A stretch of DNA of 64,000 nt from Saccostrea cucullata (GCF_032062105.1 NW_026927480.1:1-64000); one strand, 5' to 3'. Shown: positions 638-64,000, counted from the stretch's first letter. Numbers and translations: made by a program. The notes: generated from the letters alone by a model not told the origin.

Positions 638-3121
638 ATGAAAAGTTTTACGTCTTTGATTCAGGTGAGCCTTTCAAGCTTAACATTCGATAGAAATGGG
701 GATATATTGTCCTATTTCTTTTAGTTTCAATAATATACTTCTCTTTTCTTCGTTCTTAAAATAAAGGGGTGAGGTGAAATAATAAAGATGTCATAAGACC
801 TTCTTTCTAATCGTGGATTTCAATCTACTTGTCACAAAATACAATGTATATCGAAATTGGCTTTATTCATTCCGATACGTAATTTTACGTTAGGAAAAAC
901 TTTGATCCGCATATCATGATCAGTGAGTCATTAATTCTTTTACTTGTATGTATGTATACAGTGCATTCTCTATATACTACAGTGATGTACCGGTATGTGT
1001 TTTTGAGTGCTATTATGCTGTTGATCAAAGAAAAAAGACTTGGGCTGACTAAAGTGTGTCCGTCTTTTAGTGTAAATTTCACCTTGTTTACCATTCTGGT
1101 TTGGTCATTTTGTACCATGTACTAATAAAATGTTTAGTAAAAACCATCAAGACCATTAATTTAAAAAATCAGAAGTTTGTAAAAGCATGTTTAATCTGGT
1201 AGTAACATATTTATCTACACAAAGGTACATGTATTGTGATTTGTTGAACCTTGTCTTCTTTTTAACCTTTACCCAGAAATGTGTAAAATACATTAAAGCT
1301 TAATTATAAAGAGCCTTGCATATTTTACTCAATGTATTATGACTTTATCACATGTATATTTAAAACTTATTACATGTATATCAAAGTGACAAATCTAAAA
1401 TGGGTTTGAAAATGTGCTTTAACTTATAAGAGCATTGGGGGGAGGGGGGTCACTGTCATTTTAATTATTTACACACAGAATTGATGACAGATTTTCCCCT
1501 TATTTTCTGATCCCCACATGGAGAACTTGGCAGATGTGACTGGTCGGCATGGGATGCTCAATCCCCCATTGCACCTAGTTCCACCTTTGATCCGTGTTTG
1601 CTCTGCTCCTATTTTGTATTGTTTTATGGACTTTTGAGCTTGAATACAGTTCGTTGCATGTATTTTCATATGTTTCATCTATGAAATTAAAACTAAATGG
1701 TGATGCAACATGTGAAAAATAAAAAAAAATGTGTTGATGTGAAAAAAAAATTAACGTTTATTTCACGATTTCCTTTTCAGATACCATTATTTGTACTTGT
1801 CGCCAGTTTTTGTATGGCAGAGGGCTTCCTTTTGCCTGGAGACGTGTGTCCATTCAACCAAAAATGCACGTGTACATTTAATCGCATAGACTGCAGTTAT
1901 CGCTACCTGACCGAAGTGATGAACTTTACCTCTTACAATCAGCGCGCTGATTACGTTGGACTCAATCACAACTTTATAACGAGCATTCAGTCAAACTCTT
2001 TCTCCACCCTCTTTTCCGCGTCATCTAGACGCATTCTCATCCGGTTGGATTATAATAGAATTGACAGTGTGGATGTTGACGCGTTTGCGGGTATGCCTAG
2101 TAATGTTACTGTGGTTGTCTACTTGAACGACAACAATCTAAAAACGATACCGCCAGCTCTTGAGAAAATATCTGGATTGTCTTCTCTTTACGTTCAAAAC
2201 AATCCCCTAACTAATATAGACGTACTGACAACCATCGGACCTGCTTTAAGTGTGTTGAGTTTAAGTTTGAAAAATTTCCAAACCTGGCCGACACAGTTCC
2301 AAAATTTGACACATATAGTTCATTTGACATTGGACGAAATTCCTTTCAAAAATCTAAGTAGTGATGCATTGAAAAATGTGGACAGTCTGACCTCGCTCAC
2401 TATATCAAACTCAGAATTAGAACACGTGCCGGAGGCAATATGTGTACTGAAAGATATGCAGTTATTTTATTTTATTAAGAATAAGAAACTGAATCAGGAC
2501 CGAAAACCATTGGTGCCGTGTCCAGGATACGTGCTGAATTACGTCTCATTTGTTGATATGAGCGAAAACGAGCTGAGTGCTTTCCCAAATGTATTCGATA
2601 CGTTTCCTTCAGTAAAACGACTCCAGTTGATCGGTAATAAAATCCATTACATCGAAGCTGACGTCATTCCCCATCACCCAATGGTGGAGAGACTTTACCT
2701 GGACGGAAACCGAATGAAGCGAATTCCGGGAAAACTCACTCAGTTCTCGGCTTTAAAACAATTATTTTTATCAAACAATGACATTTCGACCGTCGAAGAC
2801 TGTGATTTAGCAGGACTAAGGCAACTTGATCAATTGTATCTTAACAATAACCCGGTGGAGTATGTATCCAAGACTGCACTCGTTGACGCACATCTACTTC
2901 AACGCCTAGAACTAGGAAATACTAATTTGCGTAAAATACCGGAAGCACTTTCACCTCTCACAAAACTCTCGTATTTGAACCTAACCGGAAGTCCAATAGA
3001 ATGTGACTGCTCCATGAAATTTCTTAGATCCGCCCTTCCACTGGATGTCCAGGGCACCTGTACTTCATCTTCTCAAACAATCAACGAATATATTGCCAGC
3101 TCTGCTGGGTCATGTCCATAA
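638..3121 (+). CDS. Secreted leucine-rich-repeat protein (signal peptide, LRRNT, multiple LRRs, LRRCT, no TM), ~455 aa, 2 coding exons
   Basis: Exon 638-664 (ATG...CAG|gtgag, MKSFTSLIQ, phase 0) joins exon 1781-3121 (ttttcag|ATA), giving a hydrophobic leader ...IPLFVLVASFCMAEG-FLL. LRRNT CPFNQKCTCTFNRIDC; repeated LxxLxLxxNxI/L motifs; LRRCT-like PIECDC...GTC...CP at the C-terminus. Probable 5'UTR exon 220-350. Confidence 0.88.
1500..1680 (+). mobile_element. Short dispersed repeat (SINE-like); further partial copies at ~6975-7050 (reverse) and ~11730-11790
   Basis: Shared core ggcagatgtgactggtcggcatgggatgctca...gcacctagttccacct, seen reverse-complemented at ~6980-7040 and degenerate at ~11735-11780. 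Confidence 0.55.
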
Positions 3122-11353: not shown

Positions 11354-13149
11354 AATTTTGAACAAAATTAAATGATATATTTATCTGGTCAATTTGCAGT
11401 GATTTTGAACGTAAGGACCATACAAAATTTTGGTTTCGTAGGAATGGGACTTAAAGGACAAAACCTGATCGCAAGTTCTGTAATATGCATTGTATGAGAA
11501 AAAGAAAATACTTGCTGTGACAAGCATCTCAACAACGCTTATCTTTATAAAGTAAACAATATTTAATACAATCATATATATCTACTCGATATATCACAGA
11601 GTCTAAAAAATTAATAAAATATATAATTTGGTCTTCTTTACCATGTTTTTCGTATCAAGTAATAGATCTCTTCCTTTCTACTAAATTTCATTGCATATTA
11701 TTTCTTACACCAGATCATTACTTACGACTCACGGTGGATGTGACCAGTCGATAGGATGCTTACCCATGCATCTAAGATCCTAATCTAGATTTTTTGATAG
11801 ATTGTGTCCTTTACCCTGTTATCGGGTTTAATATTTGTAAGAAGATTTTTTGAATTTTATCACTCTCTATCATCTTCACCTTTTCATTACAAAATTCATT
11901 CCAAAATCAAGCTATCCCAACAAGCCTTGCACACACAGAATACTATGCTAAACTTGTGTATGTACGACTATAGTATGTGCTTCAGTATTAATATATGCAT
12001 AAAATATTCCAAACTCGGGCAAAAAGCAGTAGCATTGCTCCATCTAATACATTGTATTGGAAATCAAATTGTTGATAGTGCAAGCGATACCAAAATTCCA
12101 GCTGTCTCGGTCAAGGTCAGATGAGCCATTTTATGAATGAATTTTGTTCTCACGCTGACTGAATCACCAAAAAGGCATGCGGAACCTATCTGTGATTTAC
12201 CTCGGAGTACTATTTCTGCATGTTACATTTCAGTACGGTAAGACAAATCACTAGCACTTTAAATATTGCAATAAAATCTGAGAAAAAATCTGCAAAATTG
12301 CAATTCTACATGCAGGCGGTGTTTAAACGAATATTGCTGAAATAGGTATTCTTTAACTAAAATATAGGGGATTTGTGAATACATGCAGCAAATACAATAA
12401 ATCAAGATAGCCAAATCCCACACATCATCACTGGCTACACTTCGGGGTTCAATCTGTGTGAGCCCTCTTTGTCGAGGACCCCTTACCAATTTCATTGGGA
12501 TTTTAAAGGTTGACTTAAAAACAAGAACAAGTGCTTGATTTTTAAAATGACAATCTATAAGGATGGTACATAAATAATATTAACACAACGTGTAACAAAA
12601 GAAAAAGCCTCTTTTAAAGTACAGCATTGCCACAAAATCGACCATCTCCCAATCCCTACCAGACAATAACATCCAAAAGATACAATTTTGATCTTTCCTA
12701 AATACCGAATTTCTCCCTAGCAGATGAAGGATAAGTAGTTTCTCCATACAGTGTAATGTCATTGCGTTCACAGCACTAGTCGTCCCCCTGTCTTATCTTA
12801 GGTCTTTTGGTACTCATTGAAATCTGACAAGAGACCTAAGGGATACTCTCTAGTCATTATTTTGAAATGAAGAATTAAATTCTTATCTAGGCTTTTTTAT
12901 TACTTTTATTTAATTTAAATTTTACAACGAAGAACAAAGCGCAGATGCATGATTCACATTTTTTACTTTTTGTCATGGTGCATTTGGAAGAAAGTTAGAA
13001 GTATTCATTAACACAAATTCGTCCTCTTGTGACTAATTCTAGGTACACCGTTGTGAAAGTAGAAGTGAATTGGTCTTTCAAAGTGTTGGATTTTTCCACT
13101 CGCTTTCATACATTCACAATTTTGAGAAAACTGAGAAAATTCTGGCTTC

Positions 13150-16100
13150 ATGGATAAATCTGTTATTTTGTGGTTGTGCATGTTGTTGATTTCAGGCGGA
13201 AGTGATGGATTTTTAATGTGTTCTCTGACGTCATATATGCCAATGTTTTGTTCACTACAATGTCCCAATGGGTATGCCAAAGATAGTTCTGGGTGCACTA
13301 CATGTAAATGCGCAACGCCCAACCAAGGTGAGTGAACCGTCAAATTTTAGAGGACCTAGCGTTTCTATTTATAGATTTACATAAACAATTATTAAACGCG
13401 AGGCTTTGTTCGTTAAAAATATTGCTGTTTTTTTAAATAAAAATCAATGATCGAATGCACATTGAATGGGTTACAATTTTAATATTTGTTTTAATATGAA
13501 ATTGCCTTGCCTTTCACACATAAATGGTAAAAATACATAAATAATTTTTTTTTCCATTAGAAAATAAGTAAATAAAAATACCAATAATGTGATTATTAAC
13601 TAAGTGGAAAAAAGTCTTAAATTAACAACTTTATCAATTGACACTAATATTATTTCTTGTACTTTTAGTACGCGTAAGATCATTATTATTTGATGCAATC
13701 TCAGCATTCATTTTAATCATCCGTATACACACTATTATGCACACATTCAAGAGAAATAAATTTAATTGTTCATTTTTTGGGCTATTTATTAAACAACTTT
13801 TTCAAACATATTAGGTCCATATTTATTTATTTGTTTACATTTGTCGTTTGAGATTCTTTTAATATGCCCAACTAAATAATAAAGTCGTTTTACCTTAATA
13901 ATACCATTTCCATTCGACGATAAGTACATTTTTCTTTAAATATATTTTCTGATACAAATCCAGATACATGTTACATGTATTCACGTAATCAATGATATAT
14001 TTATAAACTGTAAATGACACTACACACAAGATTTAAATGCCATCTTTAAGTGAAGGTGGTTATATATCAGTCTGAATCGAAAAGGGGGTATATTCAGTTT
14101 GTTTGTTTGTGTGTTTGTTTGTTTTGTTTTTTTTATCACGGAATCAGAACCTTTTTTTTTTTAAACATAAAATGGCATTATCTAAGAAACTTCACCACAG
14201 GAAAGGGATGTCTAATAATTTCACATCATATTAAAATTTTTTTTTTAAAAAATGACTGAAATGAAAAGTTCAAAAATTGATTGTAGACACACGTAGCTAT
14301 GGGCACTTTCTACATCTTAGCTACCCATGTTCTTGTTTCAGTGTTTCTTTTTTCCTTGTTGTTTTCTTGTAATGTCCGCCCTCACCTGGCGAGGATGGGC
14401 AGAAAAATGATATCAGCTGGTCAGTTACTATTGACCTCATTCTTCTATCAATAATCACTCTACATTTAGAATCAAGGCCACACTTATATATATATATATA
14501 CTTAGATATTTATAGAAATGCAATGTCCTTGGTGTAATTTTAGTATAGTTTTAGTATTTAGGTGACCCATTTGCAAAGCTAGATGCTACATAAAATTAAA
14601 TTCCAAAAGGCATACAAAACCTGTACATTTTAAAGAAAAATAAGAATAATAAAATCAAATTTTCTAAAAGATTTGCAATTCGCATAAATTATTTATCTTG
14701 CATGTAAGCATTATTTTTTTCTCTCTTGCATATTGACCTAATTTACCTTGCATATAGAAAAATGTAACCTGCGAAAATAATGATGTCATAAAATTTCAAT
14801 GTATGCACACATTTTCTTTCACGATAATTGCTGCCTGCTATAACAAAAAAAAATATTGTAGCTCTGAAGTAAAACGCATATTAACAAAAAGTTTATTTTT
14901 GGTTTAGATTCTGCCGCAATGACCCAATCCCAGAGTTCCCAAGCAAATTCCCAAAGTATTTCCGGTTCTCATGCAAATCCTCAAAGTATTTCCGGCTACG
15001 CACATCCGTGTTTACCTCATCAACAGTTCTGTCCCCTGAATTGCCCAGAAGGATTCGTGACCGGAAATGGAGGCTGCCAATTCTGTATATGTTATCAAAG
15101 CAACATAACTGGTACAAAACTTAGACTTACAGTGTAATTGTTAAATTTATACGACAGTGTTTCTTGATAGAACGGGAAATTATTATACCGTTGAAAGAAA
15201 GATAGTAAATCAGATATAAAGTTTTTTTTCAAAATAGATTCCTAGTAATAAATGATTTTTTTTGAAACGAAGAATTCATTCTATATTTTATTTTGCCACG
15301 TTATGAATACATAGAACACATAATCATGTAGTATTAGTGTCAATATCGTTATTTTCATTTTTTTAAGAGAAAAAGAAACATTACAAGCATTTTTTCTCCT
15401 AATTTGTCAAGAAGCTCGTGAGGTTCCATTAATGGCAAGTAATAATTGTCATTTTTTTTTTCAAAATTTATTTGGATTTCAGATTCAGTGACAACACAAC
15501 CACCCGTAACTACCACCCTCAGCCACATTAAAGTCCACATGAGTAACCCCTGTATCCGAAATCAGACTATTTGTGACAAGTACTGCGCGGAAGGATATCT
15601 GCTAGGACCGGATGACTGCCAATACTGTCTGTGTAGGAATCTCATCCCCGGAATCGTATACACTAAAGGCATACAACCCACATTCTGACTCCAGGATTTC
15701 TAATGACTGTTTTATCGCAGTTAACTATTTGTTGTCAGCTTTTTTTCTCTAAATCGGCACTATTCTATTATTTCTGTAGTTTTTAGAATAAGAATTTATC
15801 CAGAAGGGTTTTTTTTCAATTATAAACATACAAATAACTCCATACAGACAGGTAAACAGTGTAGTTTTGATTGTTTAAAGCATGAATGTTTGATTTTAGC
15901 GCCAACTACAACACCGTCCTCAGAAACGACAACTCTGGCATACTACCTACCTAATCCTTGTCAGTCAGGGCAACATGTGTGTACAGCCCACTGTGAGTAC
16001 GGATACATCCTAGGCCCGGGGAATTGTCAGTACTGCATGTGTGGCGCCAAAACCACTCCCGTCACAAAAGCCATACCAGGTAAATAAAAACGATGACTGC

Positions 16101-29667: not shown

Positions 29668-29847
29668 TTTGGATTATAGAAACAGAGCTAAATATGAAAT
29701 CTCCTCAATCGTTTTCATAGGACAAAGTCATGTCGGAATTTGGTCTGTTTCACAAAGCCCCAAAACGTATGAGGTATAGATGATATAGCACCGAAAATTC
29801 TTAGTAAGAAAGTCTTGATTCTTTCTCAAACTCTAAAAAGCAAAGAA

Positions 29848-32707: not shown

Positions 32708-32711
<4 letters not shown>

Positions 32712-32762
<51 letters not shown>
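32712..32762. repeat. (CT)n microsatellite, ~25 units
   Basis: Direct run. Confidence 0.95.
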
Positions 32763-32765
<3 letters not shown>

Positions 32766-49800: not shown

Positions 49801-52800
49801 AAAGTAATGCTTAAAATGCTATGTATCCATATAAATTATAAGTATTTTAAAAACTGAATTGTTTAAATTGAGGTATAATTTTCAAATATCATTTTGATAA
49901 TATTTGTAAATGTAATTAGTTTTCTAAAAAATGATATTTTAGGAGTAGTAAAAACCAACCCAAGAAAGCTCTCATAGCATTGTCTGGCATTCCACTTCCA
50001 CTAGATTGAGAGGTTTGTTTCGCTGAAGCTACCCCTGAAAAAAAATTATTATTGTCGGGATCGGGGTTAAAAGATATGTATCCTACAAAAAAGTGTTTTC
50101 TGTATTATTTTTCCTATTTATCATAGCACTTAGATTGTAATGCTCTTGTCTAAGACGACATTGCGATCTGCACAATTTAAAATAGATCCTGTTAAAATTT
50201 AATACACATACGCATGCGCGAACTAAGAGTGCAAAGCTAGACAGTTAATTTAGAGCAAATCTGTCTTAAAAGCTCTAGGATTTATTTTCTACAAATTAAA
50301 GGGAAATCTTTGAAAGCCATTAATTAAAAAGAACATATTGTTCTGCTTCAAACATTAAAATTTATTAGTGATTCTAACTGTTAATCCCAATACCTTCCAT
50401 GGGAAACACAAAAACCAAAAATAAATAAAAAATAACAAATAAATAAAATTCAAATCCTGAAAACATTGTTTTTAATTTTCAGCTTGATGGCTATTCCATA
50501 CTTCTGATTAATTTAAACTGAAAAGAAAATTAATTTTCAAAAATAAACATAATTAAAAAAAACCTTTATAAATATATTTTCACCATTTAGATAAATCTAA
50601 TTAAAACGAACCCCCCCCCCTTATTTAAAATTCGCGGAAAAATCACATAAAAAAATCCATACAATTAACTTGGATACTTTTCAGTTCAATCGATGGCTCC
50701 TATGGATATCGCTTATTGCAAATGACTTTTACGTATTTCATAATCAATAAGGATTTCCGATATCATATCTTCACTTTGTAGTTCAGTTCATAAATTTTGA
50801 TTGATATGAATTTAAGAAAAAATCATTAATTTTCACCGTGAAAGAATTTGTGCGTTGCTCACCGTAAGAATCAGATAACCCTTGACCTTGACCCAAGCCA
50901 GATAAAGTTGCATCACGGGCTATAAATAGAAACAAATGATTAATGATTAAACATTCACTACGACAAGGTTTAAAGTACATGTAATTAAACAGAATTTGCA
51001 ATATTTGAAGAGTTGTTTTTGGTTTTTATGGTTATCATTGTCTAGATAATGGATGTTATAGGCATTTCAGATTGTTGTTAACAGTTCTCCTTAGTTTGGA
51101 AGCTTACTTCTTGAAGAAGTCAAAGACAGACTTGGTGAAGACGACCTGGAAGGCGAAGCTGTAATGCAGAAAAAGGTAAGTTCATCAAGTAAATATATCA
51201 AGTTAATATATTTTAATTAAATAAATCAAAGCCTAACCTTTTTTCGTGGGAAAATAATTGATAATTAAAATTAACAATTACATTATATATATCTTCATTT
51301 AAAAACAACTTATTCACTTTCTCATTCTCTCAGGTGCTTACTTTCATTTTTCTAAGTATAAAGGCAGATTTTAATACTTCGTATTCTTTCTTAGCATTAA
51401 ATTTAGCAGTAGTCCCATCAGGGATCATGAATAAGTGATATTACTTGAGAAGATACAAGCAGTTGTCCTATCAGAGATAATGAATAAGTGATATTACTTG
51501 AGTATATACTTGGACTAGATAAATCGCTATATGCCATAGGAATTGGCTCTGGAAGGGCGCTTTGCGCAGTCGTTGAAGGAATTGACGTAACAGCAGTAGT
51601 AGATACCATAGTAGTAGTAGTAGGATTGGTAGTAGTAGTGTTAATGTCCAGATTTACAGTTGAATTCGCTATTATTATCTCATCTACCGATACATTTATG
51701 TTATTGGATAATTCTACAGGAGTAAATATTCAAAAACAGTTGATTAGTAATTAATCATACAACAAATAAAAACAAATATACATATATGTAAATATATATT
51801 AATACCGCAACCTGTACCAACTTATAATATTCATAAACCATAATTACAAATTAATGAAGTGTAAGTCACCATATCGACAATTAGGAGAATGTTAATCACT
51901 CACATGGTTATAAAGTCCCAAACAAAGACAAACTACAAGACACCCCAATAGAAGTTTTAAAAAATCAGTTAGTTTGCATTATGTATATTTACTTTAAAAA
52001 CAATTACCACAATCATGCATGCATAAGTAAAAGTAAACCCGTGACGTTGCCTAAAGACACTTCATTATTTGTTTAATTTTATTTTTAATGTTAAAAATAC
52101 AAGTCAGTCAAAATAACTGATGCATTAGACAATCTTGCCTTGTGTTTGTACATAGTTCATATCCTCGTTCTGTGAAAGATGGTGGAAATTTCTTTGGCTC
52201 TGTTCATTTCCCGACAAACTTGACATGAGATTTGTCCTGTGATTATCGTTCCTGGACATAGACAAACCTCCTTGAACATCAGTGTGAGGAATGGAATTGG
52301 ACAGCTGACCGGCCGTATGGACTCTAGAAGAATCCTCGGAAGTAGCTAGTCTGTGAGAAACATGTTCACTTAATTCTTGCTTACGCTTTCTCAAAGGTAC
52401 GCGTTGTCGGCGAGGTTTTCTGCTTTGTTCAAAAACAGCGCGGGCTTTATCTAGAGCGGAGATTGGGGAGGGCGTGGGTGGAGGTGGTGTTGTGGTAGTT
52501 GTCGTGGTTGTTGGTGGTGGTTTTGTTATTTCCGGATACAGAATTTCCGTGATTGGTTCTTGTGTTACATATTCATAAACGTAGGTTGTGTCAATAGACA
52601 GAGGGTCCATAGTGGTTTCTGGAACGGTTTCTGTAACTTTCTCAGTTTTTTGTTCTGTTACTGAAACTTGAGCCTGTTTTGATTCTGATTTGGATGTCGT
52701 TGAAACATCGATGATTTTGGTCGCTTCTTTAGCTGTATCTAATTGACGGAGTTCCTCCAATTCTTTCTGTCTTTTCATGTCCTTCTTAATTTGTTCAATT

Positions 52801-55800
52801 ACCCTTTCACTTGCAGTCGGTGTGACGGATCGAGACAGTGATATCTTTACTTCTTTGGATGGTATAAGGGTTTGTTCTTTCTTGTTAGTCTCCAAAGTCT
52901 TTGTTATTCCTGGCTTGAGCTCTATTTTAGTTGAGGTTACTGAAGACTTTTCTGTTAACGGTATTTTAGTCTTCTTTCCCCTTTGTCTTTCTGATAGTCG
53001 AAAATTACTTGTTTCTGAAAATATCTTTTTTTCATTCTGGTTTTTGGATTCTGGTACAGTACGTAATTTTGTTTTTACTGTGATATTCAATAATTTCATT
53101 GAGGGATCACCTTTTTTCTTTTTGTGTATTTTTGTAAGGGCTTTGACAATATTGTTTGCTGTTTTATTGTGTGTTTCTTTAAAATAACCTGTTAAAACGT
53201 CTAACATATTATTGATTTGCTCTACCATTCGGGTCTCGCCCACGGCTCGCTTTCGCCTCAGTGATACTTTGTTATTGACCCCAACGTTTGCGTTTAGATT
53301 TGTGTCCATTGGAACTTTGGAAGCGGCTTCCATAGCTTTTGCAGCAAGCAGTTCCGTGTTGAAAAGTACTGGATTGGATAACCCTACCCCTGTTCTCATT
53401 GGAGTACCTTGACTCACTGATTCACTTGATGTAGTTCTGGAACTGACACTTCCTCCTGTCTTTGTTGCAGATGATGCTGTCATACCAGTTCTTACATTAC
53501 CTCCCAAGCTTGTCGATTCACTTGATGTTCCGGTTGTTAGTAATCCACCAGTTGTTCCATCTGCAGTTATAGACGTTCCAGAGCTGATAGACCCACTAGG
53601 GCTTATAGACCCGCCAGTGCTGATAGAGCCACCAGTGCTTACAGATCCTCCAAGTCCTGCACCACTGCTTCTTGTCTCAGTTGATTTTGACGTTTTTTCA
53701 ACACGGGTCTCAGTTTTTACAACTTCTGTGCCTGGTCTCTCAATAAACTCGTTCGACCCTCTTGTGTTTGTGTCAACGTTACGTAAGTTGAAAGTCTCGG
53801 CACCTTGTCTGCTAGTTACGGTGTTTCCAGTGTTGGACATTACTTCTGTACCACCCACTTGCAACGATCCGGTTTGAACAGAGGAAGAAGATTCCGATGT
53901 CACGCCGGGTTCAATGAAAAACAACATAGCGTTATTTGGTCTGCTCATGCCTGGTGGTGTAAGGGACAGGGACGATCCTCCTGCAAGATCCCCACTTGCT
54001 ATATCCAGACTTCCAGACACACCAGATGGTCCGCTTATAACACGACCTGGCTGTCTTGGTTTAGCAACGTTAACTGTACCTGTCGATGAAGTAGACGACG
54101 ACGTTTTTGTTGAAGTAAAGGAAGTGTCAGATGATGTAACATCTGTAGAAGCCATCGTTCCATCTGCGAAGTTAGCATCGACGTACTCAATAACTTCTGT
54201 AACAACCGTTCCATCTTTCTGTACGGTTGTTTTAGTCTGTGGTGGCAATATTTTTTCTCCAGGTGCAGCGATAATTTCTTCGGTCACAGTTGTGATAATC
54301 TCCTCCACTTGTTGTTCTGGTTTAGAGGGCGCTATATTTCGTCCTGTGTCCAAAAGTATAAAATCAAAACCAGGATTTTGATTAGTTACTGAACTTGATG
54401 ATGAAGAAGAAGAAGTAGACGATGTCGAAATTGTACCAGTTGAAACTGCACTTTCACTATTTAACCCACTCGTGCCACTGTTTGCACCTGTAAGGTTATT
54501 TTCTGCAACAATACTTCCCGATCTAGAATCCCTTGTTACTCCGTTTGCATCTAATGTGAATGACGTTTCTACAGTGCGAAAATCGCTTGCTTTCTCTGAT
54601 GATCGGCTTTCATTTAGAGTCGTTGTAGTACCTTCTGTAACTACGATGGTTTCACTTGCTGGTTGTGTAACGTTCTTAATTACAACTGTTTCCTCAATGA
54701 TAATAGTTGAATCTCCAGCTGGATCCCGTATTGTTGTGTAATTTGTCCAAGAAGCGTTTTGCAATTGTGCTGATCCTGAAACGCCCGACACGGTATCAAC
54801 AGAAACATTATCTACACTTGTCCCACCTGTTGAAATAGTTGACGCTCCCGTCAAAGACGATGTATCGACAAATGATGACGAAGAGTCGGTAGAAGATATT
54901 CCAATCTCTGCAGTAGGGACCGGGTCAACGAGTGGAACAATTTCTGGTTGAATATCTACGGTTTCAGAGGTGACAACATTTGCTATGTTTGCCGAGTCTA
55001 CAATTGGAAGCGTCGGATCTACTACCACTGTTCCTGAGATTCCGGTTGTTGATAAAGATGTATCAAGAGATGACAATGAAGATGATGGGAGTCCTTGAAC
55101 TGATGTTGTTTCAGAAACAGCTGTAACATTGCTATCAGACATGCTGCTAGTTGTAAAAGAGGTGCCACCTATATTTCCTGTAATTCCACCTTCTACTGAT
55201 TCAACTGGAATTAGTCCACCCTGACCATCCGTGACAAAGGTTTCGGTAATTATTGTCTCTCTTATAATTGTTTTACCAGCGGGAATAGAATCTTGTGATG
55301 AGGTTGAAGAGTTCATAACCTCTCTTGTTACCGAAATTTCACCAGGAATAACTACTGTCTTTTTTGAAATCTCAGGTTTGTATGTTGTATCAGTTACAAT
55401 AGTCTCTGTCAGTGATGGACTTCGTATGTCCGTCTCCAATCTTGTTGTATTTGATGTTGTGACAATTGTCTCTGTTCTTCCGTCTTGTCTGCTGATATCT
55501 ACGTTTCTATTTACGTCGCCTGTTAGTGTGGCGGAGGATCCGCCAGCAGATTCAATGGTTAATGAAGTATCCTTTTCTTGAGTTCCAGATAAAGATGTAG
55601 AACCCGCACCTGTATTGAGGGAAACAGAGGTGGCAACATCTTTACTACCAGATAAGGTGCCTAAATCAGAAGCTATTGTTGCTGACTTATCAACTGTTCT
55701 ATCACCTTCAACAGACACTCTACTTCCATCAGACCCAATCATTAGACTGGAATCTACGACACTACCACTAGTAATTGTAGAATCTCGACTTCCTAAAACA

Positions 55801-58800
55801 GATACAGTTTCTCCAGATCTGGTGATATCAAGTGGTGGATCAGTCGTGACATTGCTTGTCCAAATGGAGACACTAGCATCCCTATCACGGCTTTTGCTGA
55901 CAACATTTCCACTTGTTTGCATGCCCTGATCTATGATTGTTACAGAGGCATCCCTATCTCGAATTGTACCGATATCGTTGCCCGAATCTATTGTGACTGT
56001 TGCACCTATGTCACGACTAGACCCAGCTGTATCAGTTACGGTAATTGTTGACCCTATATCCCCCCTTGTTTCAGTTTCAGATCCACCAGTTACAGTCACT
56101 GTTGATCCAATGTCTCTACTTGTTCCAGTGTCTTGTCCTGTCAGCGTAAAACCGGTGCCGCCATCATTAGTAATACCTGTTTTTTGGTCCGTATTTGTAG
56201 TAATAACCTCCTCTACTACAGTAATAGTTTGAACTCCTGTTCCTTCTATTCTTCCTTTGTCATTTGTTACAACACCTCCTGTATCGCTATAGTTTGACTG
56301 AACTTCGGTAACAGATCTTCCAGGCTTAACAATCAGAACATCAAACGGCAGTCCATCTGTAGTCACGGAAGTTTCATAAGGATCAACACTGCCTGTCTTG
56401 ATAGAAGATGTTGACGATGTTGATGACGAGGATGATGTAGAAGAAGTGACTGATGATCGTGCTCCTGGGCTACCTTGATCGATAACTGTCTCTGTGACCT
56501 TTTTAACGACTTCAGTTACTGGTCTTCTGTCTACAGTTTTTTCTACAACTGTGTCAACGACGACCGGATTATTATCTACCAAATTAGTTGTCACTGTCCT
56601 TCCAAAATTTGTTCCAATTGGTCGGTAATTAATATTTTCCGTTCTTCCTGTAACTCTTTCCATCGTTTCTTTAGGAATAATCATTGGTGGTGGATCGACA
56701 TTGATGGGGGAGACTGTATCTGTTACAGTTGTTACCGGTCTATAATCAATCATTATCGGTATCCCATCTGTAGATCCTGCAAACAGCGTGTTAGAATTAA
56801 CACCGCCACTTTCGTAATTGATTGAATCTTTCACATTCGATGTTGATCCGTCACTTTTGTAGTCTATGACTGTAATGTTTGTAACAGAAACAGTTTGTCC
56901 CCTGCTAGTTCCCCCAGAATCAGGCAGGAGGTACTTGTTTGACGTAGATGAAGTTTCTGTAGATGAACTTGTGTCAAAGATATTTCTTGTGTCTGTGGAA
57001 CCCGTACCTATCACACTGACTCTAGCATCATTTGTAGTATCAGCAAAACGTTGGGCATCTATATTCCTTCCACTAACAAATGTTGTATCAACTGTTCTAC
57101 CGGGTAGTGTGCTACCACCTAGGATTGTTTTACTAGTAGCGCCGCTTTCATGAACATCAGATATTAAAACAGAGTGGGGTTCGACGCCACCAGCAAATGT
57201 TTCCCTGATTATTGTTTCTCTTGTGATTAATTGTGGGCCCGAAGATCCTGTTCGCTCTGTAAATGTCACATCTCCAATCCTAGAAGAAGTTGTTTCTCTC
57301 ATAGTTTTACTCGTTTCAGAAGAGGTAACACCACGAACTTCAGTAACTGTACCAGCATCCGCCACTGAACCTGCATTTGTTGTAACTACCGTTTTAGATT
57401 CCGTCACACCGTCTGAAGGTACGAAAACAAAGTCAGTTGCGGTAGAACTACCGGCAGTTTCTCCGCGTGTACCACTCACAGTAACATCTGTAGATTTATC
57501 TGTTCGTGAGCTACTTATTGTATTTCCTGTTATAGTCGTTTCCGTGCGTGGACGCTCACCGGTTACAATTGTTTCAGTAATGGTTTCAGTTCGTGGACGT
57601 TGACCAGTTACAATTGTTTCAGTTATGGTTTCAGTTCGCACGTCTTTATCCCGGATGGCAGGACGAATTAATGCATTTGAATTTACAGTTTCCCTAACAG
57701 TAGTATCAGACCGTCCGGATATGGGGATTTCAATATTTGTTGTTCCTCTATTACCTGAAATATCAACTTTGGTCGTTCCAGTTTCGATATATTCATTTGT
57801 TCGCAAAGTAGATGAAGAACTCCCACTACCACTTGGTACAAACGTGTTTATGTTAACTACAGGATCTGTTTGAATCTCTTTAGTCGTTGTTACGGTTTCG
57901 GTAAACATTTGGCCTCTCCCATCTTGAACTTGGACCTCACTAATTATTAATCTTTCTGGGATATCAGGCCTTGCATTCCCATTCAATAAAATGTCAACAG
58001 ATGAACCCCCAGCATTGGTTGAAGAATGTGATTCACGAAGAATACTGTCTATTTGTCTATTTCCTGAAACCGTTGTTACGGTCGGAATTTCATTGGTGTT
58101 TATATTAATGTCCTTAGTTGTTGATATATCAACTGTTTTAGAAGATCTATCAACTGTTGTTGACCCAGAGGTATCAACACTGGTAAAGCCTACGTTGTCT
58201 GTGGTCAATGTCCCGGTGTTATCTACGAAACTACCCATGGTGTCCTTCGTTGTAACAAAGGTTCCCCCCGTTGTGTCGTCACCAGATATGATTTTTGTCT
58301 CGTTGATTATAGTGATTGTGGTTATTGTTTTAATGACATTACCATTTGGGTTTCTGTATGTTTTTGTAACTTTACTAACACCGCCAGGGGATGTTTCTGT
58401 AATTGTAGTGCTTAAACCGCCATCAATAGAAGTTGACATACCACTTCCAGTGTTTGTTTCCGTTCGTGTAGTTTCAATAAATCTATTTCCACCTGAGGTT
58501 GACATACCACTACCAGTGTTTGTGTCTGTTCGTATGGTTTCAATAAATCTATTTCCACCTGAGGTTGACATACCACTACCAGTGTTTGTTTCTGTACGTG
58601 TAGTTTCAATAAATCTATTTCCACCTGAGGTTGACATACCACTACCAGTGTTTGTGTCTGTTCGTATGGTTTCAATAAATCTATTTCCACCTGAGGTTGA
58701 CATTCCACTACCAGTGTTTGTGTCTGTTCGCGTGGTTTCAATAAATCTATTTCCACCTGAGGTTGACATTCCACTACCAGTGTTTGTTTCTGTACGTGTA

Positions 58801-61800
58801 GTTTCAATAAATCTATTTCCACCTGAGGTTGACATACCACTACCAGTGTTTGTTTCTGTACGTGTAGTTTCAATAAATCTATTTCCACCTGAGGTTGACA
58901 TACCACTACCAGTGTTTGTTTCTGTACGTGTAGTTTCAATAAATCTATTTCCACCTGAGGTTGACATTCCACTACCAGTGTTTGTGTCTGTTCGCGTGGT
59001 TTCAATAAATCTATTTCCACCTGAGGTTGTTGTCAAAGTAACACTTCCTCTGTCGACAACTTCATTCACTCTTCTGTCCATTGTGTTATCAACAACATTA
59101 TTCTCGTTCATTACGTTAATAGTGTTTGAAAAATCGATATAACCCCCATTTACTGCACTAGAACTGACACCCCCATTGTTTAACCCTGTAGTGGATGTCT
59201 TTGTGACAGTGGTTTTTGATCCTACAACTCCGCCTGTTCCCAAGGAACCAGCTGCTGTGGACCCTGTTCTTCGTTCTGTTGTTATTAGAGAGTTGTCTAT
59301 CATTGAACTTCCTCCATTTATATTTACACCACCTCGTACAGTAGCGTCCATCCACCTTGGGTTAACGCCAGGCTTATTAAAGTATGTTGTTTCTTTTACT
59401 ACTGTTTTGCTTGCCGATCCAGACCCTATGCTACCATCAACATTCAGGTTTGTATTTGTTGTTTTTGTTGCTTTAGTACGACTTCCAATATCTGTAGTTA
59501 CTCGGTTTACGTCCCATTTACTCGTTTTACCAACACTAAACTTTTCTCTACCACCTCCAGTCCCATCCCACTTTGTCGCTCCTCCCCAATTGGGTGCTCC
59601 ATTCCAACTCAGTGTACCAAGGTCGGGATTTAATGGCTCTGAAACCCACATTGAGGCTGGGATTCCTGATTGTGTTTCAATGTTTTCTATCCGATTGACA
59701 CGATTTCGTCCGCTGCCAGCTAAGTAATATGGGTACACTGGGGCCAAAGTAGGCCAAACAGGTTTCATTTCTCTGGGAGGCCATCTTGGGGCAAGTGTTC
59801 GTGCCTCTTGCTCTGGAGAGGGTGTAGTATAACCTCTGTAGATATTTACATCACCTTCCCCTGAAATGGTACAGTTCAAAATATTTTTAATATTTATTGA
59901 AAGAAGAAAATGCAAAAGAGTAATGTACAAGAAAGTAATACTTCATCCGATTATTTTCCTAAACTATTAGAATGAATTTTAAGTATCTATTTCATATTGT
60001 CAATCGACAAATAATATAACTGAAGAACTTATCAAATAAGTCACCTTTCAAGGAAATTATTCTCTCAATTTTTTTCCTGATGTTTGTCGGAGCTTGTCGT
60101 CTTCTACGTATGTGTTTGAATGTATTTTCTGCATTTGAGGAAGTCGATCTTTTCTCTGTAAAGTTGTAAAGGAAATTCCTGGATCCATTTTGTTTGGTTA
60201 ATAAAAAAGTCTAACTAATGGAAAAAAGCTCACTACTATTTTATGGGATAGAGTTGCATTCAATGTAGCGGTGTTCATTTAGATTCTCTTAAACTAGCAG
60301 AATATTTTATAAACAGGGAGCTCGTACATTATAAGCCCTTGGAGTGGTATGGCGCAAAACAGCTAACAGAAAGACCTAAAAAATTTTTGTGAAAATGTGG
60401 TTCAACGTATAGCAAGGAGGTAAAGAGCTCAAATAGAGTTATTATCCAAAATGTTTAGGACTGGTAGAGACATTAATAAAAAGTTATTTGTTAAAGAGCT
60501 ACTAAAACCTGAAGCATTAGTTCACCAGTATAAATATAAATCATGTTATGATCTACACTTTTCTGTCCAGTTGTTAAGAACTAGAGTCAGGAAAAATTAC
60601 AAATCTCATCAGTTCATATTATCCAAAGAATTAAAAGTTAAAGATAAGTATAAGCAATGCGTTATGGATATTTTAAGCGTTAAGTGTCTACAAGATTTGA
60701 TAGTGACCTACATCTAGATTAATAAAGAGTAACTGTTGTCCATATCCTTTCTTCTGCTTTTCAGTATCCACATTCCGTCTCTCCTCTATCATTGTGTTCT
60801 TTTTTCCTCTCGTTCGATAAGGTGACGCTAAAAAAACGCGTTAGGAGTACACGTATCACGCTCTGTGATGTCTTATACACTGTTAAACGCGAATACATGC
60901 ATTCAAAAACATACTTTGGATACAGATAGGCGCTTATAAATTAGTTATAATAGGGCCTAAATTTCTCGAGTGTTTTTTTTCTAATTCCATAATTGGATAC
61001 GAAAATTTTAATCATGAACAAATTAACTGGCAGTCTCCATTTGATTAATCAGGTAAGTAAATAAATAATACATTCCTTACCGTTTCAGAAGAAAGTGTCA
61101 AAATCTCAGAAAATATAGAAATGTAACTTAGAAAGGGTAATGCGACGTCCATTGCCCCTAGAACTAACTGGATGTTTTAGGAAGAATGCAATTGACAGCA
61201 ACTGAGAGAATGAGAAAAAGAAGCCTGAGAGAATGAGAGGTGCGATTGGAAACATTAATTGTATACAAACCCTTTTTCTGTTTGTGTATCATTTCAGCAT
61301 GTAATCTGGCCGTGCCAGTCAACGGGGCCAAAGAATGTTGGACAAGTGCAAGTGTATCTAAAAGTACGAATTAAGTCGTGCCAAAGAATGTCCTGATAAT
61401 CTTAAACAGTCGATCAAAATATTTTAACTCTTGGTGATAGATTAAATTGATTGACTCCCCAGTGCAGCTTTCCAGTTAAAGAAATTCCATCTGCTTCATA
61501 TTTAATGTTAAAAAAAGACAATGAAAAAGGAGACTAGAAGTTAGGAATGGAGAAATGACAATTTACCTTTAGAGTTTGATTGAGATGGAACAACTGTCCA
61601 GCGACCTCCAGTTCGAGATGATTGGGGCGTGTCCTCCCAAGAAGAGGGGCGTGCCGTTGACGGTACTACCACCCATTGATCATTTGATTGTTTTTGATTG
61701 GTAGTTGAAATTGACTGATGGCTCTGTACTTGTGTGCTACCTATGAAAAATTTAGAATACTTAAGTTCCTTCTTCTAAACATATCTTTCTTATGCTATTT

Positions 61801-64000
61801 TGCTTTTTTTTCCAAAATGGAATTAATTATGTTGCTTTTTACAATTGATTGTAAGCAAAAGCGCAGACAGGTTACTCTTAAAGCCAATCAAATGATCATT
61901 TGAGGGAGGACACGATAGTTAAGGAAGTATGAAGTTTGCTAGAGAAGGATAGAATGAAAACAGAATAGAGGATAGAAATACCTTGAGGGGCAATGCCAAC
62001 AAAGCTTTGGGCATGTTGGGACGTGTGAAGAGCATGACTTGGACTATGTGACATTGCTCCATGACCGATTTCATGACCATGTTCCATCCACCTCGGATGG
62101 TCTGCTCTTACAGGGCCCTCATTAATGGGCACTGGTTCCCAGTCATTTTTATGATGAGCAAAATCAATATACGGTTCTGTCATTGTGTGAGCTGATTGAT
62201 GAGACTCGTGTGAAACAAAATCGACGGTTTTAGTTCGGGAATGACTCTTTTCTTGATTAATATTAGACGCTAGTTTTTCCGTCGGCGACACTTCAAGAGG
62301 TCTAACATCTGTCAATAGGTTGATAGTTGGAATCGAGTCTTTTCGTGTTTTTTGTTTTGATGTTTGTGCTGATTTATCAATTTGAATGGATGCAGATATA
62401 GTATTCTGTCTGCTTGGTCGTCTGTTTATCTCCAACGTTGATGAAGTGCTTTTAATTTGTGCTACTCTTGCATCAGCTTTTTTCTGATTGGCCAGTTTTT
62501 TCAGCGATTCTTCAGCTTTTAGTCGTGAAGCCTGGAAAACGTCCTGAACTTCTTCAGTTACGGGTCCGGTGGTGGATTTGATAGGCGTATTAATAGCTAT
62601 GTTAATGATTTGATCTCTTCCTCCTGGTTCTACTATTGAAGTTCCTGTTCCTTTTTCTTGTCCTCCGCCCTTTCCTCTCCTGGATATTAGCTGAGATTTT
62701 TCGGAAACAGTTTTAGTTGATACTTTTTTCTTTATACCAGGTCTAAGGATAATGTCTTTCATCTCTCTAACTTTTTGATCTTTAATTGTTTTACTTTTCT
62801 CTACGGATCGGCTGACTTGCTGGATCTCACTTCTAGAACTTCCAGAAACAGCTTCTTTAAGGGAAGCAAGAAGTTCATTGTAGATTTGCAATTGTTTTGC
62901 CTGCATTTCTTCTTGATTGCCTTGAAATATCAAATTAAAAATATTCAGTTTCAAAACTTTTTAGAACGGAACGAGAATAAAATAAGTTGATACCAAATGA
63001 AAATAAAAGATACCAACCTGGTGTGCTGTATTCGCTTTCTACCGCAGTCTTTACGAGCTTAGATAAGAGAACTTTAGATGCTTTGGGAATCTGTTGGTCA
63101 ACATTAGCTGAAACATTACATCCAGGAGATGAATTAAAGACTATGATTCCTGTTTTATTTGACATATATCCAACAAGTTCTAATTTTCTAGAATGGTATA
63201 CGAAACAAATTTGCTAACACATGTTTTATTAACGCACTTGTACTCGTATTTATTCCATCGAAAATCGTAAAAAAGATTTATTTAAATGCATCTCTTTCAA
63301 TTACCTGTTGCAGTAATTAAATTCTATTAATGTTAACTTTATATTAGTACCTTAGGTAATTGCAAAATAATTCTCTCTCACCTGGAATATTGAGAACTTC
63401 TGGTAATGGAGATGGCATCTCTTCTTTTACGACTTTTGTTTTCTGTTCTTTTGATTGTACTCTTTTTCTTGGTCTTGGAGGTTTTCGCCTTCTGCTCTCA
63501 GACCTACTGCTGCCACTTGGATGAGTTAAGGAAAAGTCTAGTCTATTGCGCTGGCTTCTATTTATGATTTCTCGTGTTGGGGTTGGAATTACTTTTCTCG
63601 TTTCTATCCTTTTTTCTGCTTCCTGTACAGGAGGAATTTCTATCCTTATTTTTGAAATTGGTTCGCGGGACTTGATACTAGCGTCACTGAATTTTTCTGT
63701 CGGAGGACTAGGATCAGCTGACTGGGTCTTTGTAGTCGTAACAGCTTCTTTTATGGCTGTGTTCACTTTTGTTTGCTGTTTGTTTATAACCTTACGCTGC
63801 GTCTGTACATTTATATTAGAGGAATCTTGGACTTCAATTCCTTGTTTTACTTCAATATTCTTTACCGTTTGGATAAGAGGTGTCGGCATATTTTCGATTA
63901 CACTTTTCCTTACATCTGTAGTTACTGCTTTCACCATGCCTTTGTCTTTACTGACATCGATAACGGATGCCTTACTAGATTTTCCATGTATAGCTCTTAA
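37881..64000 (-). CDS. Giant low-complexity extracellular/structural protein gene (>=45 exons, >=4,249 aa in window; 5' end outside window): Thr/Ser/Gly-rich mucin-like core plus Gly/Met-rich microexon-encoded C-terminal region
   Basis: Exons 5'->3': 63382->64000, 63018-63179, 61982-62920, 61567-61740, 61271-61357, 60708-60827, 60045-60155, 52139-59860, 51498-51713, 51108-51158, 50863-50919, 49960-50034, 49727-49774, 49156-49305, 48842-48886, 48585-48599, 47766-47804, 47364-47390, 47183-47239, 46642-46662, 46468-46512, 46148-46201, 45997-46026, 45598-45684, 45180-45386, 44982-45083, 44753-44794, 44436-44498, 44017-44073, 43665-43685, 43450-43467, 43126-43143, 41430-41687, 40876-41211, 40436-40591, 40093-40326, 39825-39845, 39505-39537, 39327-39350, 39061-39084, 38763-38786, 38481-38513, 38299-38325, 38045-38098, 37881-37927. 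All internal exons are multiples of 3, phase 1-1 and stop-free. Single-gene continuity and the last exon are inferred. Confidence 0.72.
40180..40290 (-). repeat. Coding tandem repeat, 39 bp (SMMGGTGNMGGQA) x ~3
   Basis: Visible in DNA and in the translation of exon 40093-40326. Confidence 0.85.
46220..46325. repeat. AT-rich 21-bp minisatellite x ~5
   Basis: Unit approximately aatgtaatattttatgtaata, immediately upstream of exon 46148-46201. Confidence 0.8.
46835..47206. repeat. ~50-bp minisatellite x ~7.5 derived from an exon end plus splice donor
   Basis: Unit (+ strand) approximately aatcgacttactcattgggtcattgaatcgacttgtagtgttataaatag; the last unit overlaps the 3' end of exon 47183-47239. 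Confidence 0.85.
52139..59860 (-). CDS. 7,722-nt single exon (2,574 codons), Thr/Ser/Gly/Val-rich mucin-like region with a basic Lys-rich segment
   Basis: Lies within the 2601-aa ORF; acceptor ccatttcag|GG at 59860, probable GC donor CAAG|gcaaga at 52139. Confidence 0.9.
58432..59028 (-). repeat. Coding tandem repeat, 66 bp (22 aa, STSGGNRFIETTRTETNTGSGM) x 9
   Basis: Nine near-identical units counted in the DNA and in the 2601-aa ORF translation. Confidence 0.95.

What the first reader, a model, noticed from the sequence alone, without database searches (positions are those of the whole stretch)
638..64000. Cluster of unrelated secreted-matrix genes: possible co-regulated biomaterial locus
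Five consecutive plus-strand genes all have signal-peptide-like leaders (LRR protein, Arg-rich disordered protein, three antistasin-like proteins). They face a giant Thr/Ser- and Gly/Met-rich gene on the other strand, with only a sugar transporter between. Structural protein, Cys-rich inhibitor-fold protein and LRR scaffold are the typical mix in molluscan shell and adhesive matrices. Co-function is inference.
Basis: inference. Interest (0 to 1): 0.7.

Follow-up and report, generated by a model that had tools for sequence, protein, structure and literature searches.

The report
Oyster cluster of secreted-protein genes
In a rock oyster, twelve of thirteen neighbouring genes over 170,000 bases are predicted to encode secreted proteins, mostly floppy repetitive ones plus three related cysteine-rich ones, and part of this line-up appears to be kept in other oysters, so they likely help build a secreted organic coating, though shared control is untested and the probable counterparts of the five first genes are missing from a published shell-protein list.

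Summary
The genes are real. Databases name the genome Saccostrea cucullata. Five plus-strand genes have signal-peptide-like leaders: a secreted LRR protein, an Arg-rich disordered protein and three antistasin-domain proteins. A GLUT-type transporter follows, then a predicted 45-exon, ~4,450-aa Thr/Ser- and Gly/Met-rich gene that starts outside the window. 'Unrelated' is partly wrong: the three antistasin genes are a tandem paralogue array, and the window alone is no more than chance would give. The stronger signal lies beyond it: six more two-exon secreted low-complexity genes extend the run to 168 kb, 12 of 13 genes. The LRR and antistasin genes appear linked in other oysters, and the antistasin genes in a pearl oyster. 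Genes 1-4 appear together in two RNA runs of a relative, faintly in one and not in a fourth. In C. nippona, two probable counterparts are differentially expressed between mantle zones, but in different comparisons, and none of the five is in the shell proteome. Best reading: a conserved secretory-epithelium neighbourhood, likely making an unmineralised organic layer. Co-regulation is not shown. Shell-mineral and DOPA-adhesive roles are not supported.

The parts
638..3121 (+). Secreted LRR protein, 455 aa, 2 exons (638-664, 1781-3121), Cys-capped at both ends, no transmembrane segment; = XP_062612865
   Evidence: intron seen in X1 and X6; oyster orthologues at 70-75% identity; 9 distant paralogues at 26-33% elsewhere in the genome
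3903..6263 (+). Arg/Ser/Asn-rich protein, 278 aa, predicted disordered, pI 11.5, 2 exons (3903-3948, 5473-6263), signal-like leader
   Evidence: intron seen in X1 and X3; no Pfam hit, no Atlas hit, single match in the genome
8069..11353 (+). ATL1, 364 aa, 6 exons with phase-1 introns: two Trp-containing 6-Cys modules, a Gly/Met-rich spacer with invariant NPMA, a Thr-rich linker and two antistasin domains; = XP_062612868
   Evidence: orthologues in oysters, Pinctada, Mytilus, Ylistrum, Sinanodonta and Potamilus
12177..16910 (+). ATL2, six antistasin-like domains, one per exon, with Thr/Ser linkers. Two possible leaders: ATG 13150 (my model) or ATG 12177 (RefSeq XP_062612871)
   Evidence: 4 of 5 introns seen; only PDB match is leech antistasin 1skz at E 0.045
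20148..21567 (+). ATL3, 183 aa, three antistasin-like domains and a Thr-rich linker; = XP_062612864; paralogue of ATL2
   Evidence: lies outside the stretch on which reads were laid
22212..34514 (-). GLUT/SLC2-type sugar transporter, the only non-secreted gene in the 168-kb tract; 5' end approximate
   Evidence: Pfam Sugar_tr on two exons; exon positions
37758..51713 (-). 3' part of the giant gene: 37 predicted phase-1 exons, many of 15-60 nt, encoding 855 aa (17% Gly, 10% Met, no Cys) with five MNP[ML] motifs
   Evidence: modelled from sequence only; three exon borders in the whole model remain non-canonical as placed
52139..59860 (-). 7.7-kb exon, 2,573 aa, 31% Ser+Thr, no Cys, one RxRR furin-like site; ends at a predicted GC donor, with an in-frame stop and poly(A) signals just behind it
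   Evidence: homologous ORFs P0055, P0056 and P0092 break off just after the same G-K position
58432..59029 (-). 66-bp coding tandem repeat, 9.1 copies (22 aa), absent from the two full-length homologues
61567..64000 (-). 5' exons of the giant gene (61740-61567, 62920-61982, 63107-~63012, 65133-63382). It continues outside the window to signal exons at contig 71,815, 71,631 and 67,211

Best explanation
The window is the left end of a 168-kb oyster tract in which 12 of 13 genes are predicted to encode secreted proteins, and these likely act together in one secretory epithelium, probably the mantle, to build an unmineralised organic layer rather than the shell mineral. Shown: the gene structures, the tandem antistasin array, RNA contigs of a relative covering genes 1-4, and a shared MNP[ML] motif in ATL1 and the giant protein. 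Inferred from accession numbers and sequence lengths: linkage of the LRR and antistasin genes across oysters. Inferred mechanism: the Cys-free giant protein (Thr/Ser-rich, probably O-glycosylated, Gly/Met tail) and the cationic disordered proteins would self-associate into a gel or film. The multi-domain antistasin proteins would act as disulfide-stabilised cross-bridges or protease shields, and the LRR protein as a folded binding scaffold. The tract probably grew by local duplication (antistasin array, perhaps the six two-exon genes) inside a chromatin domain open in secretory cells. The transporter is probably a bystander.
For: Tract: six more genes with a signal exon and one large low-complexity exon at contig 95-168 kb. 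Of 130 GC-rich ORFs screened between 65 and 200 kb, 2 had Pfam hits, both from one transposon. BLASTP found no similarity among the non-antistasin proteins compared (the 168-kb gene was not in that comparison). Linkage: S. echinata XP_061170381-384 = LRR, ATL1, ATL2, ATL3; O. edulis XP_048750704-712 = LRR, ATL1, ATL2; C. virginica LRR, ATL2 and ATL3 on one 58.27-Mb sequence; three ATL genes on one sequence in M. gigas and in C. angulata; Pinctada FSP39_016812 fuses ATL1 and ATL2, with ATL3 on a sequence of the same length. RNA: contig depths for LRR, Arg-rich, ATL1 and ATL2 were 37/138/38/97 in X1 and 1300/878/1289-1437/1272 in X6, about 0 in X9 and traces in X3; intron bins were near 0. C. 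nippona (PMC10543319, Tables S11 and S12): CNI_026896 (LOC105336431-like) is edge-high, logFC +5.2, in undrilled mantle; CNI_026894 (antistasin X1) is centre-high, logFC -3.0, during shell repair, like the shell protein CNI_026874. Motif: 5 copies in the giant tail against 0.06 expected (0 of 5,000 shuffles) and 2 in ATL1 (P 0.0002); NPMA is invariant in 10 of 10 ATL1 orthologues. Met-rich regions mark insoluble scaffold proteins in Pinctada shell and ligament (PMC7591529).
Against: Only 4 runs, tissues unknown, and the tool warns that contig depth is a poor measure of expression. In X3 the Arg-rich and LRR genes are 5-15 times higher than ATL1 and ATL2 relative to a repeat bin, so the four are not in lock-step. 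ATL3, the transporter and the giant gene have no read evidence here. The two C. nippona genes appear in different tables and 3 of the 5 in neither; with over 1,500 and over 3,200 rows in those tables, 2 of 5 is weak. The CNI-to-gene mapping is inferred from NR names and ID adjacency, and the ID order suggests a rearrangement between genera. The chance argument fails if the six downstream genes descend from one ancestor. Linkage was not tested for the Arg-rich, transporter, giant or downstream genes, nor outside oysters for any non-antistasin gene. Unmapped mussel antistasin transcripts are enriched in digestive gland (11 of 18, PMC5549309) and gill (PMC4581086).
Confidence: 0.42

Rival explanations
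1. No shared function: a tandem antistasin array, one or two other local duplication arrays and unrelated neighbours, kept in order by ordinary oyster collinearity.
For: ATL1-3 are paralogues. The six downstream genes share a two-exon, phase-0, basic low-complexity plan and could be one diverged family. Collapsed counts are within chance. The two C. nippona counterparts fall in different expression tables. Outside oysters only paralogue adjacency was seen.
Against: No detectable similarity among the non-antistasin proteins compared. No recognisable housekeeping gene but one in 168 kb. Genes 1-4, of three unrelated kinds, are absent together in X9 and present together in X1 and X6. ATL1 and the giant protein share a rare motif.
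Confidence: 0.28
2. A true shell-matrix locus whose products are built into the calcified layers, some too insoluble or too poor in tryptic peptides to be detected.
For: The 2,200-aa Kunitz-tailed gene at contig 261-268 kb matches C. nippona CNI_026874 by size, pI, domain and neighbour; that protein is in the foliated and chalky layers. Antistasin domains occur in limpet shell proteins (PMC3374290) and Met-rich proteins in insoluble Pinctada shell fractions.
Against: Among IDs CNI_02684x-02692x only 026874 is in the shell proteome table. The proteins are not acidic (Asp 2-8%). No chitin-binding, VWA, EGF or tyrosinase domain was found.
Confidence: 0.12
3. A mucus or luminal-gel locus of gill, palp, gut or style sac: a mucin-like giant protein with protease-protective antistasins and an LRR binding protein.
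For: 31% Ser+Thr over 2,573 aa. Antistasin transcripts are enriched in mussel digestive gland and gill (not mapped to these orthologues). ATL1 is conserved in byssate, cementing and freshwater bivalves alike.
Against: No VWD, C8, TIL or cystine-knot domain and no Cys in the mature giant protein. Two probable counterparts are differentially expressed within mantle.
Confidence: 0.13
4. A larval foot adhesive or cement locus.
For: Cationic disordered proteins (pI 10-12). An antistasin-like protein is a byssal protein in Perna viridis (PMC5435178).
Against: Tyr is 0.1-1.4% in the low-complexity proteins and ATL1. The pediveliger/adhesive search listed PMC6337334 with 0 occurrences of 'antistasin' in its main text. 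Probable counterparts are expressed in adult mantle.
Confidence: 0.05

Closest known systems
Antistasin family (Pfam PF02822; leech antistasin, PDB 1skz; Perna viridis byssal antistasin-like protein, PMC5435178)
   Same: Six-Cys spacing C-x-C-x3-C-x2-G-[FY]-x6-C-x2-C-x-C, tandem domains, secreted.
   Different: Domains sit on separate phase-1 exons with Thr-rich linkers. The residue after the second Cys is T, M, S, P, D, T, Q, N, H, P or D, never Arg or Lys as in leech antistasin (CR-VHC), and varies among orthologues. ATL1 adds two Trp-containing 6-Cys modules not recognised by Pfam and a Gly/Met spacer.
Pif/LamG3 shell-matrix gene cluster of oysters (PMC10543319)
   Same: Physically clustered genes for mantle-secreted proteins, formed by tandem duplication in bivalves.
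   Different: That cluster is one homologous family, shown in shell proteomes. This tract mixes unrelated proteins, and its window genes' probable counterparts are not in the shell proteome.
Methionine-rich insoluble shell and ligament proteins of Pinctada fucata (NU-5, LMP; PMC7591529)
   Same: Secreted proteins with Met-rich low-complexity regions, proposed to self-assemble into an organic scaffold.
   Different: No sequence comparison was made. NU-5 has a Glu-rich Ca-responsive region, whereas the Gly/Met tail here has 1.6% Glu and is attached to a 2,573-aa Thr/Ser exon.
Vertebrate SCPP cluster and epidermal differentiation complex (recalled, from no call)
   Same: Long tracts of genes for fast-evolving low-complexity proteins, many with a short leader exon and one large coding exon, serving one tissue product.
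   Different: Those clusters have shown co-expression and, for SCPP, common ancestry. Neither is shown here, and no homology is implied.
Gel-forming mucins (MUC2/MUC5 type; definition recalled)
   Same: Very large secreted protein with a long Ser/Thr-rich region and a tandem repeat.
   Different: No VWD, C8, TIL or CK domain, no Cys for polymerisation, and only 4% Pro in the Ser/Thr exon.

Membership tests
Antistasin family (PF02822) | Six-Cys antistasin pattern / Pfam match | tested here: met
   9 of 13 Cys-rich exons match PF02822, 4 over the cut-off, at least one in each of ATL1-3; five Cys invariant and a sixth in 90% or more.
Antistasin family (PF02822) | Basic P1 residue of trypsin/factor Xa inhibitors | tested here: not met
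   0 of 11 canonical domains have Arg or Lys after the second Cys. The P1 position is assigned by alignment to 1skz and from recall.
Antistasin family (PF02822) | Antistasin fold | tested here: inconclusive
   AlphaFold2 model of ATL1 had mean pLDDT 42 and pTM 0.17, so no fold search was run; sequence match to 1skz only E 0.045.
Antistasin family (PF02822) | Serine-protease inhibition | not testable with these tools
   Needs an enzyme assay.
Shell matrix proteins | Peptides in a cleaned shell proteome | tested here: not met
   No CNI_02688x or 02689x entry in C. nippona Table S10; only CNI_026874 from this region. The mapping is inferred from names and ID order; one species only.
Shell matrix proteins | Signal peptide | tested here: met
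   Hydrophobic N-termini in all five genes and the giant gene; hydrophobicity scan only, not SignalP.
Shell matrix proteins | Mantle-enriched expression | tested here: inconclusive
   Two probable counterparts differ between mantle zones; enrichment over other tissues was not seen (the figure file was too large to read).
DOPA-type mussel adhesive proteins | High Tyr (DOPA precursor) with Lys | tested here: not met
   Tyr 0.1-1.4% in the low-complexity proteins and ATL1, at most 4.7% in ATL2.
Gel-forming mucins | VWD-C8-TIL and cystine-knot polymerisation domains | tested here: not met
   No Pfam match at E below 0.05 in the five largest exons scanned, and no Cys after the leader.
Co-regulated gene cluster (SCPP/EDC-like) | Run of secreted-protein genes beyond chance | tested here: inconclusive
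   12 of 13 genes in 168 kb; expected 3e-5 to 0.03 per genome with the ATL array collapsed, 1.7-48 if the six downstream genes are collapsed too.
Co-regulated gene cluster (SCPP/EDC-like) | Conserved linkage of non-paralogous members | tested here: inconclusive
   LRR with ATL genes on one sequence in 3 other oysters, inferred from accessions and sequence lengths; other members and non-oysters not tested.
Co-regulated gene cluster (SCPP/EDC-like) | Co-expression in one cell type | tested here: inconclusive
   Genes 1-4 present together in 2 of 4 runs, absent together in 1, faint and uneven in 1.
Co-regulated gene cluster (SCPP/EDC-like) | Shared enhancers or one chromatin domain | not testable with these tools
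   Needs ATAC and Hi-C data.

The most novel reading that the evidence does not exclude
An undescribed bivalve counterpart of the vertebrate SCPP and epidermal-differentiation clusters: a co-regulated 170-kb block of twelve mostly unrelated secreted proteins that builds one oyster material. In it a 4,450-aa micro-exon-tuned scaffold and a pan-bivalve antistasin protein assemble through a shared NPM motif, with the antistasin domains used as structural cross-bridges rather than inhibitors.
Probability: 0.2. Interest if true: 0.75.

Novelty: new member of a known kind. Interest (0 to 1): 0.47.

Why it matters
Mollusc matrix proteins evolve fast and are usually found one at a time by proteomics, which misses insoluble, low-complexity ones. 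A conserved genomic block of twelve secreted proteins would give a ready parts list for an uncharacterised oyster material and a testable case of unrelated structural genes held together by shared regulation. ATL1, with an invariant motif inside a disordered spacer from oysters to freshwater mussels, is a good handle on a basic bivalve secretion. If co-expression fails, this is an ordinary tandem array among secreted neighbours.

Tried and rejected
1. The run search with the giant exon listed no RNA holder; the small shares (0.16 in X1, 0.04 in X9, 0.00 in X6) were never laid and are not used as evidence. The second read-laying returned no data, so the giant gene's junctions and expression stay open.
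2. ESM Atlas gave no usable hit for the Arg-rich protein or the 160-kb protein; a blank shows neither novelty nor absence.
3. AlphaFold2 on ATL1 with 10 sequences failed (pLDDT 42). No complex prediction was run, since no specific binding pair is claimed.
4. No annotated full-length model of the giant protein was returned: 2 hits among 7,988 candidates of 1,417-4,510 aa and 2 hits among 1.84 billion representatives, all ORFs that end near the exon border.
5. A repeated LRR-plus-antistasin cassette elsewhere in the genome was rejected: the 9 other LRR matches and the 11 other antistasin matches lie on different contigs (lower bounds).
6. P0065 (1,261 aa) is a generic poly-antistasin, not a fusion of these genes.
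7. I considered that C. nippona CNI_026891 'ficolin' might be the giant gene. No fibrinogen-like ORF was evident between the giant gene's stop and the transporter (read by eye), so that ID stays unmapped.
8. Accession searches of main texts found nothing relevant (0 papers; 3 unrelated). Topic searches showed no paper describing this cluster; only CC-licensed PMC and bioRxiv were searched. Supplement searches of PMC12551290 and PMC8382897 had no hits, and PMC12862220 gave only GO lists.
9. Antistasin CGI_10021371 of PMC5824581 could not be mapped to these genes.
10. Earlier findings of this scan: nothing near, by words or by sequence; 7 unrelated notes.


Full report
Setting. The window is bases 1-64,000 of a 307,497-bp contig in a 1.17-Gb genome. 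The LRR protein is identical to RefSeq XP_062612865, labelled Saccostrea cucullata. The window starts at the contig start, so nothing to the left could be examined.

The five plus-strand genes. Exon models give open frames for an LRR protein (638-3121, 455 aa), an Arg-rich protein (3903-6263, 278 aa, pI 11.5) and three Cys-rich proteins ATL1 (8069-11353), ATL2 (13150-16910) and ATL3 (20148-21567), each with a hydrophobic N-terminus. SignalP was not available. The LRR and ATL1 models equal RefSeq proteins, ATL3 does but for its last residue, and ATL2 differs only in its first exon (RefSeq starts at 12177). Pfam finds LRR repeats, and antistasin domains in 9 of 13 Cys-rich exons, 4 over the cut-off. 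Reads and contigs of a relative about 93% alike show 10 of the 12 introns of genes 1-4 among the rows printed. ATL1-3 are paralogues with all-phase-1 introns and one Cys module per exon, so the five genes are three unrelated kinds. None of the 11 canonical domains has Arg or Lys at the position matching leech antistasin's reactive site, and that position varies among orthologues. They are therefore unlikely trypsin or factor Xa inhibitors; other targets or a structural role remain open (inference).

The minus strand. A GLUT-type transporter spans about 22.2-34.5 kb. The giant gene begins outside the window with a signal-like leader over three short exons at contig 71.8-67.1 kb. A 45-exon model, all introns phase 1, 29 exons of 60 nt or less, reads 4,456 aa without an internal stop; three borders remain non-canonical as placed. 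It has a basic N-terminal 1,028 aa, a 2,573-aa exon with 31% Ser+Thr and a species-restricted 9-copy repeat, and an 855-aa tail with 17% Gly and 10% Met; there is no Cys after the leader. Whether the big exon joins the tail is inferred. For: a phase-1 GC donor at 52139; three homologous ORFs (P0055, P0056, P0092) that match up to a G-K at this point and then end in unrelated tails of 3 to about 20 residues, as intron read-through would; and no signal-like start for the tail. Against: an in-frame stop and poly(A) signals 37-49 nt behind the exon, and no read data on this region. I put a single gene at about 75%.

Beyond the window. Six more genes with a signal exon and one large low-complexity exon lie at contig 95.5-103.5 (+), 127.2-131.2 (+), 147.0-138.7 (-), 155.4-156.6 (+), 160.4-158.0 (-) and 168.3-164.1 kb (-). 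They are 284-684 aa, nearly Cys-free, Tyr 1.1% or less, and five of five computed have pI 10-12. None has a Pfam domain. A screen of 130 GC-rich ORFs between 65 and 200 kb found only one transposon (2 of 130 hits); short-exon genes could have been missed. So 12 of 13 genes in 168 kb look secreted. With assumed figures of 10-20% secreted genes and 30,000 genes (recalled), the window alone with the ATL array counted once is expected 14-200 times per genome. The tract is expected 3e-5 to 0.03 times, or 1.7-48 times if the six are also one duplication unit. BLASTP saw no similarity among them (the 168-kb gene was not included), but fast-evolving low-complexity paralogues can lose it. Further right come TMED- and SLC5-type genes and a 2,200-aa Asn/Ser/Gln-rich protein ending in a Kunitz domain.

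Conservation. Orthologues carry near-consecutive accessions and the same longest-sequence length: S. echinata XP_061170381-384 (LRR, ATL1, ATL2, ATL3); O. edulis XP_048750704-712 (LRR, ATL1, ATL2) with ATL3 on a sequence of the same length; C. angulata XP_052693977-992 (three ATL); M. gigas three ATL on one 76.07-Mb sequence; C. virginica LRR, ATL2 and ATL3 on one 58.27-Mb sequence. In Pinctada imbricata one model fuses ATL1 and ATL2, and the ATL3 orthologue is on a sequence of the same length. This is indirect, since accession order is not strictly positional, and it covers only the LRR and ATL genes. ATL1 is also conserved in Mytilus, Ylistrum, Sinanodonta and Potamilus at 39-43% identity, with 62 invariant columns in 10 sequences, among them NPMA inside the disordered Gly/Met spacer. 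The motif MNP[ML] occurs twice in ATL1 and five times in the giant tail, far above shuffles. The giant exon found only three other sequences.

Expression. In four runs of the relative, genes 1-4 were covered by spliced contigs in X1 (depth 37, 138, 38, 97) and X6 (1300, 878, 1289-1437, 1272), absent in X9, and seen as traces in X3's raw reads; intron bins were near zero. Relative to a repeat bin, X3 has the Arg-rich and LRR genes 5-15 times above ATL1 and ATL2. Tissues are unknown and contig depth is a poor measure. In PMC10543319 (passages and supplement rows seen) C. nippona IDs 026873 (SMCT1), 026874 (249-kDa Kunitz protein), 026894 (antistasin X1) and 026896 (LOC105336431-like, numbered next to M. 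gigas ATL1 LOC105336430) mark the same neighbourhood, probably rearranged. 026896 is edge-high in undrilled mantle (+5.2) and 026894 centre-high during repair (-3.0); both directions fit the paper's pattern for chalky-layer proteins, but they are in different tables and 026893, 895 and 897 are in neither. Only 026874 is in the shell proteome table. The mapping is my inference from names and ID order.

Mechanism. The most likely reading (0.42) is a secretory-epithelium neighbourhood, probably mantle, whose products form an unmineralised organic layer: disordered, cationic and probably O-glycosylated chains that self-associate, braced or protected by multi-domain antistasin proteins and an LRR scaffold. 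Gene structure, paralogy, motif sharing and co-detection are shown; linkage is inferred from accessions; tissue, material and interactions are inferred. Rivals are no shared function (0.28), gill or gut mucus (0.13), mineral-phase shell matrix (0.12) and larval adhesive (0.05). Composition argues against DOPA adhesive and acidic mineral binding, and the lack of VWD and cystine-knot domains against a gel-forming mucin.

Literature seen. Passages: PMC5824581, PMC5435178, PMC3374290, PMC11813985, PMC7591529, bioRxiv 10.64898/2026.03.09.710468. Passages and supplement rows: PMC5549309, PMC10543319. One part of seven: PMC6337334. One section: PMC4581086. Supplement searches only: PMC12862220, PMC12551290, PMC8382897; PMC10396302's supplement was unreadable. 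Ten searches showed no description of this cluster, but subscription papers and most supplements were not searched. SCPP, EDC and mucin definitions are recalled.

Verdict. A real and larger-than-reported run of secreted-protein genes, partly a tandem array, with suggestive but unproven co-deployment. New member of a known kind; interest 0.47.

Noticed in passing
G000:C9617:95,522-168,271 (L005-L012): Six two-exon genes for secreted, basic, nearly Cys-free low-complexity proteins; three end near a TE(E)P motif. No Pfam hit; the one tried had no Atlas hit.
   Followed up: partly
G000:C9617:261,620-268,427 (L021-L022): About 2,200-aa Asn/Ser/Gln-rich secreted protein with a C-terminal Kunitz domain; probable counterpart of C. 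nippona shell protein CNI_026874.
   Followed up: partly
window 52126-52139 (-): Predicted GC-AG donor at the end of a 7.7-kb exon, followed within 13 nt by an in-frame stop and poly(A) signals: possible long and short isoforms.
   Followed up: partly
window 37758-51713 (-): Dense run of symmetric phase-1 micro-exons (14 of the model's 45 exons are 30 nt or less), a layout that would allow modular alternative splicing of the Gly/Met tail.
   Followed up: partly
window 8538-8672 and 10262-10582 (+): Two Trp-containing 6-Cys modules of ATL1, missed by Pfam yet nearly invariant across oysters, mussels, scallop and unionids; possibly an unnamed antistasin subtype.
   Followed up: partly
window 12177 and 13150 (+): ATL2 has two alternative hydrophobic leaders; RefSeq uses the upstream one, while contigs in X1 and X6 run unspliced through the region ahead of 13150.
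   Followed up: no
window 36034-36653 (+): AT-rich ORF pieces resembling the 3' end of a decayed non-LTR retrotransposon (judged by eye).
   Followed up: no
G000:C9617:175,242-176,390 (L013): Mariner/Tc1-type transposase (HTH_48, DDE_3).
   Followed up: no
G000:C9617:283,973-285,316 (L023-L024): A YqaJ-like exonuclease ORF beside a Harbinger-like transposase ORF (labels recalled, judged by eye).
   Followed up: no
G000:C5031, C18253, C8813, C4500, C8882, C3313: A small family of secreted-type LRR genes of the same length at 26-33% identity, three of them on C5031, one with an internal stop.
   Followed up: no
window 34092-34348 and 46875-47206: Non-coding tandem repeats of 85 bp (3 copies) and 50 bp (6.6 copies).
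   Followed up: no
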